A DNA stretch of 64,000 nt, taken from assembly GCF_013315695.1 (NCBI RefSeq), contig NZ_CP054353.1; one strand, 5' to 3'. The DNA is from Escherichia coli (GTDB lineage: Bacteria > Pseudomonadota > Gammaproteobacteria > Enterobacterales > Enterobacteriaceae). Numbering within the stretch: position 1 is the first letter of the stretch; each line of letters starts with the position of its first letter. A program made the position numbers. Of the stretch, positions 62,601 through 64,000 are shown piece by piece.

Positions 62601-64000
62601 CGCCCAGCACCAGACCAAACGTTGCACAGGCCATCGCCACTTCTGTCGCGTTGGTGAAGCCATAACGTTCAATGAACAATTTACTCCATGCAGCACCCGT
62701 ACCGTGACCGCCGGAAAGCGTAATAGAACCGGCCAACAGCCCCATCAGCGGATCAAGCCCTAACAGGCTAGCCATACCAATGCCAATGGCATTTTGCATC
62801 ACCAACAAACCAACAACCACAATCAAGAAGATGCCAACCACACGCCCACCGGCACGCAAACTGGCAATGTTGGCGTTCAGGCCAATGGTGGCGAAGAAAG
62901 CCAGCATCAACGGATCGCGCAGGGACATATCAAAGTTGACTTCCCAGCCCATGCTTTTTTTCAGTATCAGCAGCGCCAGCGCCACTAATAAACCACCCGC
63001 AACAGGTTCCGGTATGGTGTATTTCTTCAAAAAGGAGACGGAATGGACCAACTTGCGCCCGAGCAGCAACGTCAGCGTTGCGGCAACAAGCGTTGCTAAA
63101 GTATCGAGATGAAACATAGTTACTCCTTTGTGTCCGCATCACTCTTTCATACTCGTCATACTTCATCGCGCATTTGCAGTAAGGCGAAATATGACGAGTA
63201 TCGAGTCATGCTTTCCTGGTTCGAATTCTTCGCTGAAAATAGAAAAATGGCATGGATTTTAAGCAGAAAACAACTAAAAGTTATATAAAAAAGTACATTT
63301 ATCTCATTTAAATATTTAGATGAGGATGTAGCAAACGTTTGCTTTTCTTTTTCGGTCAGCTAAAATGCCCGCTTTGCTACCACGGGATTGTTTTCGATGT
63401 CTGTTTCCACCCTCGAGTCAGAAAATGCGCAACCGGTTGCGCAGACTCAAAACAGCGAACTGATTTACCGTCTTGAAGATCGTCCGCCGCTTCCTCAAAC
63501 CCTGTTTGCCGCCTGTCAGCATTTGCTGGCGATGTTCGTTGCGGTGATCACGCCAGCGCTATTAATCTGCCAGGCGCTGGGTTTACCGGCACAAGACACG
63601 CAACACATTATTAGTATGTCGCTGTTTGCCTCCGGTGTGGCATCGATTATTCAAATTAAGGCCTGGGGTCCGGTTGGCTCCGGGTTGTTGTCTATTCAGG
63701 GCACCAGCTTCAACTTTGTTGCTCCGCTGATTATGGGCGGCACAGCGCTGAAGACCGGTGGTGCTGATGTTCCTACCATGATGGCGGCTTTGTTCGGCAC
63801 GTTGATGCTGGCAAGTTGTACCGAGATGGTGATCTCCCGCGTTCTGCATCTGGCGCGCCGCATTATTACGCCGCTGGTTTCTGGCGTTGTGGTGATGATT
63901 ATCGGCCTGTCGCTAATTCAGGTGGGGCTGACCTCCATTGGCGGCGGTTACGCAGCCATGAGCGATAACACCTTCGGCGCACCGAAAAATCTGCTGCTGG

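What the first reader, a model, noticed from the sequence alone, without database searches (positions are those of the whole stretch)
63149..63201. 12-bp inverted repeat pair in the gltS upstream region
Seen in sequence: atactcgtcata (63149..63160) and its reverse complement tatgacgagtat (63190..63201) flank a 29-bp spacer just upstream of the minus-strand gltS start (63117). It could be an operator for a dimeric regulator or an RNA structure in the gltS leader; function unknown to me.
Basis: seen in the sequence. Interest (0 to 1): 0.2.

Follow-up and report, generated by a model that had tools for sequence, protein, structure and literature searches.

The report
Escherichia-only long hairpin in gltS leader
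The inverted repeat is real and forms the stem of a 76-base hairpin, found only in Escherichia, that most likely sits in the untranslated leader of the glutamate-transporter (gltS) mRNA; it is a modest, uncharacterised leader structure rather than a new kind of element.

Summary
It extends to 16-17 pairs and sits inside an outer 8-pair stem, giving a 76-nt stem-loop (63136-63211, minus strand; -31.9 kcal/mol, z -5.9). The window is E. coli recG/gltS/xanP. A -10-like element (TGnTTAMAMT) conserved in most of the genera sampled lies upstream of the repeat, so the repeat is probably inside the gltS 5' leader, 19 nt from the start codon. That start site is inferred, not measured.

The element is single-copy and present in 5423 of 5426 E. 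coli genomes and in five other Escherichia lineages, but in no other genus. Escherichia leaders carry about 51 extra nt, and the excess maps to the repeat. Most other genera are predicted to have a short hairpin at the same place.

Within Escherichia the stems diverge about three times more slowly than fourfold-degenerate sites (0.08-0.09 vs 0.25), while the loop diverges faster (0.41). Wobble-type changes favour the gltS-sense RNA. There is no Rfam hit, no terminator tail, no dispersed copies, no CsrA signal and no PdeL-promoter motif match.

Best reading: a lineage-specific expansion of an ancestral leader hairpin that acts in cis on the mRNA. Its function is untested. An operator role is not excluded. 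Interest is low to moderate.

The parts
63149..63164 (-). 3' arm of the inner stem on gltS-sense RNA (sense GAAGUAUGACGAGUAU).
   Evidence: (I1). Invariant in all nine E. coli alleles sampled. One A->G transition in each of E. albertii and E. whittamii, both giving a U.G pair.
63165..63185 (-). Apical loop of 21 nt. It is hypervariable and was replaced largely en bloc between the two major E. coli alleles.
   Evidence: (mean pairwise divergence 0.41 vs 0.25 at fourfold-degenerate sites).
63186..63201 (-). 5' arm of the inner stem on gltS-sense RNA (sense AUACUCGUCAUAUUUC).
   Evidence: K-12-type alleles carry U->C (a C.A mismatch) and U->G changes here.
63136..63144 (-). 3' strand of the outer stem (sense GAGUGAUGC). 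It aligns with the 3' arm of the short leader hairpin of other genera.
   Evidence: (helix 1 is 100% paired in 10 Escherichia sequences).
63203..63211 (-). 5' strand of the outer stem (sense GCAUGACUC).
   Evidence: resembles CATCGTTC of the Citrobacter sp. Awk4 leader hairpin.
63123..63128 (-). Shine-Dalgarno sequence AAGGAG of gltS, 7 nt downstream of the hairpin base. Predicted pairing of the SD-to-start-codon stretch is unchanged by the repeat.
   Evidence: mean unpaired probability of the SD-to-ATG stretch is 0.48 with the repeat and 0.49 with it deleted in silico.
63115..63117 (-). gltS start codon.
63256..63261 (-). Inferred -10 hexamer TAAAAT of the gltS promoter, within the conserved TGCTTAAAAT. 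It implies a start site near 63248-63251 and a leader of about 131-134 nt.
   Evidence: TGnTTAMAMT is found in all 7 Escherichia sequences examined and in most of the other genera sampled (not in Enterobacter, Leclercia, Edwardsiella or Shimwellia, where one search shows a similar TTACACT in Enterobacter). This is an inference from conservation; no experimental start site could be retrieved.

Best explanation
The repeat is the stem of a 76-nt stem-loop in the 5' leader of the gltS (sodium/glutamate symporter) mRNA. The inner stem has 16-17 pairs and the outer stem 8. Its base lies 7 nt upstream of the Shine-Dalgarno sequence.

It is specific to the genus Escherichia. About 50 nt were added at the site of a short hairpin next to the Shine-Dalgarno sequence that other Enterobacteriaceae are predicted to carry in their gltS leaders. 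The outer stem is what remains of that older hairpin. The addition probably arose by inverted duplication or template switching rather than from a mobile element.

It works in cis at the RNA level. What matters is the duplex, not the loop sequence. It folds as a self-contained module that does not cover the ribosome-binding site.

The most likely role is to set gltS mRNA lifetime or translation efficiency. It could hinder 5'-end-dependent nuclease access to the ribosome-binding region. Because the stacked helix reaches about 25 pairs, it could also be an RNase III substrate.

Shown here: the anatomy, the taxonomic distribution, single-copy status, the constraint on the stems and the strand asymmetry. 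Inferred: the transcription start, the origin and the molecular role.
For: - Structure: folds at -31.9 kcal/mol (z -5.9) in the window, -26.6 in K-12 and -36.4 in E. albertii.
- Position: a conserved -10-like TGnTTAMAMT lies 94-102 nt from the ATG in the other genera where it is found, but 147-149 nt in all 7 Escherichia sequences examined. MAFFT and a deletion scan both place the extra ~50 nt on the repeat.
- Counterpart elsewhere: most of the 62 distinct non-Escherichia leaders have a predicted hairpin ending 14-21 nt before the ATG, with different stem sequences in different genera.
- Constraint: among 7 Escherichia lineages, mean divergence is 0.254 at fourfold-degenerate sites, 0.087 in the arms, 0.078 in the outer stem, 0.411 in the loop and 0.14 in the rest of the leader.
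- Pairing: 95% of pair cells are paired in 10 alleles. Every variable pair in the outer stem stays paired through G.U.
- Strand: the sense fold beats the antisense fold by 4.7-11 kcal/mol in 8 of 12 alleles (9 counting the correct E. albertii fold) and is within 0.6 in the remaining three, all K-12-type.
- Polymorphism: variants sampled within E. coli fall in the loop or give G.U.
- Modularity: deleting the repeat in silico leaves the predicted accessibility of the Shine-Dalgarno and start codon unchanged.
- Copy number: one copy per genome in 5423 genomes, even at E<=10.
Against: - No compensatory double substitution was seen in any of the 25 pairs. The shuffle control is uninformative because the arms hardly vary.
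- The majority (K-12-type) allele has a C.A and a G.G mismatch on the sense RNA, and its two strands fold equally well.
- The transcription start is inferred only. The consensus promoter scan found nothing in the spacer.
- No experimental data on a gltS leader, RNase III cleavage or stability could be retrieved.
- The 3'-end map found in a supplement search lists no premature 3' end in the gltS leader.
- Conserved arms with a free spacer are equally what a two-half-site operator would show.
- Support for the hairpin in other genera is modest. Mean z is about -1, and the RNAalifold consensus was weak because of register shifts.
Confidence: 0.5

Rival explanations
1. Functionless by-product. The hairpin arose by template switching or inverted duplication in the Escherichia ancestor and persists as a structurally inert passenger in the leader. 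Arm similarity is maintained by repeated arm-to-arm template switching and by selection against unpaired arms that could mispair with the ribosome-binding region. It has no regulatory role.
For: - In-silico deletion changes nothing around the ribosome-binding site, whereas scrambling one arm lets the other pair with the early coding region.
- The loop was replaced en bloc between E. coli alleles, and the K-12 type lengthens the stem by TTCAT/ATGAA. That is a pattern template switching produces (mechanism described in PMC8794818 and PMC8604942).
- No compensatory changes were seen.
- Other genera do without the extension.
Against: - The outer stem, which is not part of the near-perfect repeat, is just as constrained (0.078) and always paired.
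- The element has been kept in 5423 of 5426 E. coli genomes and in five other Escherichia lineages, with no case of loss seen.
- The bias toward G.U on the sense strand is not expected from DNA-level homogenisation.
Confidence: 0.25
2. DNA operator. The two 12-16-bp arms are half-sites for a dimeric or tetrameric regulator that binds downstream of the gltS promoter and blocks or loops the DNA. Candidates are PdeL or PtrR (YneJ), both reported to bind the gltS/xanP spacer.
For: - A PdeL ChIP-seq peak at xanP/gltS (PMC8669472) and a PtrR ChIP-exo peak at gltS/xanP (PMC9068703).
- Conserved arms with a variable spacer whose length holds to within 1 bp.
Against: - Peak positions are unknown, and the 279-bp spacer contains other candidate sites.
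- The authors found no shared PtrR motif at this target.
- The arm motif is absent from the pdeL promoter region: one 3-mismatch match, inside the pdeL coding sequence, against 2.6 expected.
- The motif is not enriched elsewhere in the window: 6 other matches with two mismatches against a total of 3.2 expected.
- The half-sites are 41 bp apart centre to centre and lie at about +50 to +100 of the inferred transcript.
- The nested outer stem and the G.U bias have no explanation at the DNA level.
- The element is not conserved with the otherwise conserved promoter region in other genera.
Confidence: 0.12
3. Copy of a dispersed palindromic repeat or miniature mobile element (of the REP/BIME, ERIC or MITE kind) that landed in the leader.
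For: It is a palindromic insertion of about 53 nt relative to other genera.
Against: - Exactly one place per genome in 5423 E. coli genomes, none on plasmids, even with blastn word size 11 and E<=10.
- No Rfam family matches.
- No convincing target-site duplication. The 9-nt direct repeat seen (D18) is at chance level.
Confidence: 0.02
4. Intrinsic terminator or attenuator, or a CsrA-bound leader.
For: A strong hairpin in a leader. GGA motifs flank its base (CAGGAA, GCGGAC) and occur in the Shine-Dalgarno sequence.
Against: - No U-run follows the stem on either strand, and the terminator scan finds nothing here.
- No 3' end in the gltS leader appears in the 3'-end map supplement.
- In the integrated CsrA data set, gltS (b3653) is marked No in all four yes/no columns and 'NS' overall, which I read as no CLIP peak and no significant change (PMC5694010 supplement).
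Confidence: 0.04

Closest known systems
Stabilising or insulating 5'-UTR stem-loops of enterobacterial mRNAs (the ompA leader hairpins are the classic example; recalled from my own knowledge, not tested here)
   Same: A stable, sequence-independent hairpin in the leader, just upstream of the ribosome-binding site. The duplex is conserved and the loop is free. It does not occlude the Shine-Dalgarno sequence.
   Different: It starts about 40 nt from the inferred 5' end rather than at it. It is far longer (25 stacked pairs). It is genus-specific. No stability data exist.
RNase III-processed leaders (rnc, pnp, adhE, proU type; from my own knowledge)
   Same: An interrupted helix of about 25 pairs in a 5' leader, which is long enough in principle for RNase III.
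   Different: No cleavage evidence could be retrieved. The K-12 allele carries two internal mismatches.
RNA hairpins created or extended by replication template switching (PMC8794818, PMC8604942)
   Same: A lineage-specific, near-perfect inverted repeat appearing at a pre-existing small hairpin. There is a multi-nucleotide loop replacement, and one allele has a longer stem.
   Different: No donor sequence or switch points could be reconstructed, and the insertion boundaries are ambiguous.
REP/BIME and other dispersed intergenic palindromes of E. coli
   Same: An intergenic, palindromic element of tens of nucleotides.
   Different: It is single-copy, sits in a leader rather than after a gene, and has no Rfam match.
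Palindromic repressor operators such as the PurR box in the same spacer (63329-63344; PMC3159470)
   Same: Perfect dyad symmetry in a promoter-proximal spacer.
   Different: The PurR box is a contiguous 16-bp palindrome found upstream of xanP in many of the genera sampled. The repeat here has arms 29 bp apart, is Escherichia-only and lies in the inferred transcribed leader.

Membership tests
cis-acting 5'-UTR stem-loop (structured mRNA leader) | Lies within the transcribed leader, between the transcription start and the start codon | tested here: inconclusive
   A conserved -10-like TGnTTAMAMT lies 55 nt upstream of the repeat. No experimental start site could be retrieved, and the consensus promoter scan was negative.
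cis-acting 5'-UTR stem-loop (structured mRNA leader) | Folds significantly better than composition-matched sequence | tested here: met
   z -5.9, -4.6 and -6.7 for the window, K-12 and E. albertii; 0 of 200 shuffles fold as well.
cis-acting 5'-UTR stem-loop (structured mRNA leader) | Pairing is conserved among relatives, with stems more constrained than the loop | tested here: met
   95% of pair cells are paired. Divergence is 0.087 in the arms and 0.078 in the outer stem, against 0.411 in the loop and 0.254 at fourfold-degenerate sites.
cis-acting 5'-UTR stem-loop (structured mRNA leader) | Compensatory (both-sided) substitutions | tested here: not met
   0 of 25 pairs show a change on both sides. 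Only one-sided G.U changes occur, and the arms vary too little for a test.
Rfam-curated RNA family | Match to a covariance model | tested here: not met
   Only a spurious hit at E = 3.3 in the window. No hits in six other genera.
Intrinsic (Rho-independent) terminator or attenuator | G+C-rich stem followed by a U-run | tested here: not met
   No T-run follows either arm, and no terminator-like site was found at this position.
Dispersed palindromic repeat / MITE (REP, BIME, ERIC) | Multiple related copies per genome | tested here: not met
   One place per genome, with a median and maximum of 1. In some searches one genome gives 2 places, probably strain BH212, where an IS insertion splits the spacer.
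Operator of a dimeric transcription factor | Dyad-symmetric half-sites overlapping or adjoining the promoter, recurring at other targets of the factor | tested here: inconclusive
   The dyad is present, but it lies at about +50 to +100 of the inferred transcript. The motif is not found at the pdeL promoter and is not enriched in the window. ChIP peaks for PdeL and PtrR lie somewhere in the spacer.
RNase III substrate | Helix of about 20 bp or more, and cleavage in vivo or in vitro | not testable with these tools
   Helix length is met in silico: 8 + 17 pairs, separated by a 1x4 internal loop. Cleavage data were not retrievable.
CsrA-regulated leader | CsrA crosslinking, or a CsrA-dependent change in expression | tested here: not met
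   In the PMC5694010 supplement the gltS row reads No/No/No/No and 'NS'. I read this as no CLIP peak and no significant change; the column headers were not shown.

The most novel reading that the evidence does not exclude
The hairpin is a young structured RNA element. It would have arisen once in the Escherichia ancestor, by template switching at an older leader hairpin, and then come under purifying selection. It would now give Escherichia a genus-specific post-transcriptional control of glutamate uptake, for example RNase III-dependent turnover of gltS mRNA. The two deeply divergent E. coli alleles (B2-type, perfect stem; K-12-type, mismatched stem) would then set different GltS levels.
Probability: 0.2. 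Interest if true: 0.45.

Novelty: new member of a known kind. Interest (0 to 1): 0.22.

Why it matters
GltS is the main sodium-dependent glutamate uptake system of E. coli. From my own recollection of the older literature (not checked here), its expression level decides whether K-12 can grow on glutamate.

If the hairpin sets gltS mRNA stability or translation, it would explain a genus-specific layer of control. It could also point to a functional difference between the two major E. coli alleles. The window type, which includes UTI89, is carried by about 23% of genomes; the K-12 type accounts for the rest.

It is also a clean natural case for studying how an existing leader hairpin grows into a long duplex and then becomes constrained. 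Otherwise it is an ordinary uncharacterised leader structure.

Tried and rejected
- **Rfam:** scans of the spacer and of six other genera found nothing.
- **Promoter and terminator consensus scan:** no promoter, and no terminator at the repeat.
- **Dispersed repeat:** rejected.
- **CsrA target** (GGA motifs flank the stem; GGA sits in the loop of the short hairpin in many genera): not supported by the PMC5694010 supplement.
- **PdeL box:** the arm motif is absent from the pdeL promoter, whose palindromes are unrelated. The paper text gives no motif or coordinates.
- **PtrR ChIP-exo coordinates:** not in the held supplements.
- **Experimental gltS start site:** not found in the Shigella dRNA-seq, Cappable-seq, SMRT-Cappable-seq or 3'-end-mapping supplements.
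- **RNase III target lists:** not held.
- **Literature on a gltS leader, UTR or promoter:** nothing relevant. One search was a malformed query.
- **RNAalifold on 50 non-Escherichia leaders:** only a weak 5-pair consensus, because the GC/GU-repeat stems shift register between genera. I relied on per-sequence folds instead.
- **Upstream ORFs in the leader** (MTSMKE, or the 78-aa out-of-frame ORF at 62930-63166): dismissed. They have no Shine-Dalgarno sequence, and their start codons are buried in the stem.
- **Pho-box and other remembered transcription-factor consensus sequences:** no convincing match by eye.
- **Internal promoter in the K-12 loop** (TTGCCA-N19-GAGTAT): poor spacing and absent from the window allele.

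Full report
**1. Observation**

The window ends with E. coli recG (59764-61878, +), gltS (61912-63117, -) and the start of xanP (ATG at 63397, +).

The repeat is larger than reported:
- The arms run to 16 nt at 94% complementarity (I1).
- On the gltS-sense RNA the single mismatch is a U.G wobble, giving 17 continuous pairs.
- The flanks GCAUGACUC and GAGUGAUGC add an outer 4+4-pair stem.

The whole hairpin is 63136-63211 (76 nt). It folds at -31.9 kcal/mol against -15.2 +/- 2.8 for shuffles, a z-score of -5.9.

A perfect 12-mer repeat alone would be marginal in 64 kb, since 17% of shuffles contain one. The only other such repeat in the window, at 33536-33571, is an ordinary bidirectional terminator between convergent ORFs.

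**2. Where it sits**

I fetched gltS loci from 80 species-level genomes and read the upstream 120 nt in gltS orientation.

An element TGnTTAMAMT (TGCTTAAAAT in E. coli; window 63256-63261 for the hexamer) is found in all 7 Escherichia sequences examined and in most of the other genera sampled. My pattern missed it in Enterobacter, Leclercia, Edwardsiella and Shimwellia; one search shows a similar TTACACT in Enterobacter. It has the invariant T, A and T positions of a -10 hexamer.
- It lies 94-102 nt from the ATG in the non-Escherichia genera where it is found.
- It lies 147-149 nt from the ATG in all seven Escherichia sequences examined.

If it is the gltS -10, transcription starts near 63248-63251 and the repeat lies inside a leader of about 131-134 nt. 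The hairpin base would be 7 nt upstream of the Shine-Dalgarno sequence AAGGAG (63123-63128).

This start site is an inference. I could not retrieve an experimental one, and the consensus promoter scan is negative because the -35 is poor.

**3. Distribution and origin**

The repeat region is present once per genome in 5423 of 5426 complete E. coli genomes. It is never on plasmids, and no second copy appears even with sensitive blastn at E<=10. It is therefore not a dispersed repeat.

It is present in E. albertii, E. whittamii and three further Escherichia lineages (L004-L008), and in no other genus among the 80 loci.

A MAFFT alignment puts a gap of about 52 nt in all non-Escherichia leaders opposite the repeat. 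In a deletion scan, the best-fitting deletion always overlaps the repeat. Against the closest outgroups (Citrobacter sp. Awk4 and C. amalonaticus) it is the repeat itself. What then remains, GCATGACTC...GAGTGATGC, lines up with the Citrobacter hairpin CATCGTTC-GCGAT-GAGCGATG.

In most of the 62 distinct non-Escherichia leaders, the predicted fold of the 40 nt before the Shine-Dalgarno sequence is a hairpin of roughly 6-8 pairs ending 14-21 nt before the ATG. The stem sequences differ between genera, for example Salmonella GUGCGC/GCGCAC, Enterobacter CGCGUGUG/CACACGCG and Kluyvera CGCGUGUGA/UCAUGCG. Individual z-scores are modest (mean about -1), and an RNAalifold consensus is weak because of register shifts.

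So the Escherichia repeat looks like an apical expansion of an older leader hairpin. Where the extra sequence came from is unresolved, and the insertion boundaries are ambiguous.

The two main E. coli alleles differ en bloc in the loop: 8 of 19 positions, against 0.11 at fourfold-degenerate sites. The K-12 type lengthens the stem by TTCAT/ATGAA. This is the kind of change that template switching between repeat arms produces (PMC8794818, PMC8604942). That reading is suggestive, not demonstrated.

**4. Constraint and strand**

Mean pairwise divergence among seven Escherichia lineages:

| Region | Divergence |
|---|---|
| Fourfold-degenerate sites of gltS | 0.254 |
| Inner-stem arms | 0.087 |
| Outer stem | 0.078 |
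| Rest of the leader | 0.14 |
| Loop | 0.411 |

On a 10-sequence alignment, 95% of the pair cells of the 25-pair structure are paired. The outer helix is 100% paired, and each of its three variable pairs is kept through G.U. There are no both-sided compensatory changes.

I classified transitions in the stems by hand from the table. Five keep a wobble on the gltS-sense RNA, and one (U->C in the K-12 type) would be a wobble only on the other strand. This excludes two wobble pairs built into the structure. My own one-sided binomial estimate is about p = 0.1, so the signal is weak.

Thermodynamically, the sense fold is 4.7-11 kcal/mol more stable than the antisense fold in 8 of 12 alleles, and within 0.6 in three K-12-type alleles. 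My script mis-extracted the E. albertii row, so its values are not usable; one search gives -36.4 (sense) against -25.7 (antisense), which makes nine alleles favouring the sense strand.

Minor variants sampled within E. coli are loop substitutions, a loop deletion and one outer-stem C->U that gives G.U.

Together this favours an RNA-level constraint on the gltS transcript. It does not prove one.

**5. What it does**

- The hairpin has no U-tail on either strand.
- It has no Rfam relative.
- The 3'-end map found in a supplement search lists no premature 3' end in the gltS leader.
- In silico it is a self-contained module. Deleting the 53 nt leaves the outer hairpin and the predicted accessibility of the Shine-Dalgarno-to-ATG stretch unchanged (0.48 vs 0.49). 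Scrambling one arm frees the other to pair with the start of the coding region.

My preferred reading is a cis-acting structural element of the leader. It would set mRNA lifetime or translation by presenting a long, stable duplex just ahead of the ribosome-binding site. With about 25 stacked pairs it could also be an RNase III substrate. That mechanistic step is inference; I found no data for or against it.

A CsrA role is not supported. I considered it because GGA motifs flank the stem and sit in the loop of the short hairpin in many genera. However, the gltS row in the integrated CsrA data set reads No/No/No/No and 'NS'.

**6. The operator alternative**

Two papers report binding in this spacer: a PdeL ChIP-seq peak (PMC8669472) and a PtrR ChIP-exo peak (PMC9068703). 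Neither gives positions or a motif that I could retrieve.

Against an operator:
- The arm motif is absent from the pdeL promoter.
- It is not enriched in the window.
- The half-sites are 41 bp apart and lie in the inferred transcribed region.
- The nested outer stem and the G.U bias have no DNA-level explanation.

I keep this reading at about 0.12.

A further rival, at about 0.25, is that the element is a tolerated by-product of hairpin expansion with no regulatory role.

**7. Novelty and verdict**

The element is an Escherichia-specific, single-copy, constrained stem-loop, most likely in the gltS leader RNA. It is a new, uncharacterised member of a familiar kind (structured 5' leaders), not a new kind of system.

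Interest is low to moderate. The main value is as a testable, genus-specific control point for glutamate uptake and as a natural example of hairpin growth.

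Noticed in passing
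window 63329-63344: A near-perfect PurR box, TAGCAAACGTTTGCTT, lies 53 nt upstream of the xanP start codon. It is a known PurR site (MG1655 TGGCAAACGTTTGCTT; Cho et al. 2011, PMC3159470). The core GCAAACGTTTGC is present in 38 of the 87 loci fetched by then, spanning many genera.
   Followed up: yes
window 63303-63324: The palindrome CTCATTTAAATATTTAGATGAG lies between the inferred gltS promoter and the PurR box. It is unchanged in the E. coli alleles compared, but it did not match in other Escherichia species or other genera. No function has been assigned.
   Followed up: partly
window 63100-63420 versus L001/L087: E. coli carries two deeply divergent alleles of the gltS-xanP spacer: about 8% divergence over 321 bp and 15% over the 81 nt around the hairpin. 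The window type (including UTI89) is in about 1225 genomes and the K-12 type in about 4197. The differences cluster in the hairpin loop and at 63222-63245.
   Followed up: partly
window 63262-63300 (minus strand) and loci L009-L082 at about 1880-1910: An A/T-rich element, TTTTTATATAACTTTT, just upstream of the inferred gltS -10 is shared by Escherichia, Citrobacter and Salmonella. A shorter TATAAC core recurs in Cedecea and Buttiauxella, and at another position in Edwardsiella. It could be an UP element or an activator site.
   Followed up: no
loci L009-L077, about 65-85 nt upstream of the gltS ATG: Non-Escherichia leaders have a second, 5'-proximal predicted hairpin of the form (A/C)CTC-N5-GAG(C), for example Kluyvera GCCTCATGATGAGGC and Enterobacter GCTCATGACGAGC. 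It is degenerate in Escherichia. The Enterobacter version shares the 8-mer ATGACGAG with the Escherichia repeat arm, which may be chance.
   Followed up: partly
window 63100-63108 and 63197-63205: A 9-nt direct repeat, AGTATCGAG, occurs once in gltS codons 4-6 and once at the edge of the inverted repeat. It is at chance level for this region, but it allows the 3' arm to pair with the early coding region if the 5' arm is disrupted.
   Followed up: partly
L002 (E. coli BH212, NZ_CP029239.1 3878312-3881608): An IS4-family (ISVsa5) transposase is inserted between gltS and xanP, and gltS is annotated as frameshifted in this strain.
   Followed up: no
window 33536-33571: A perfect 15-nt inverted repeat, TGAAATAAAATCAGC / GCTGATTTTATTTCA, with a 6-nt loop lies between convergent ORFs 32530-33510 (+) and 33580-34833 (-). 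It looks like an ordinary bidirectional intrinsic terminator.
   Followed up: partly
gltS/xanP spacer (literature): A PdeL ChIP-seq peak (PMC8669472) and a PtrR/YneJ ChIP-exo peak (PMC9068703) are reported for this spacer. No base-level positions were available in the text held.
   Followed up: partly
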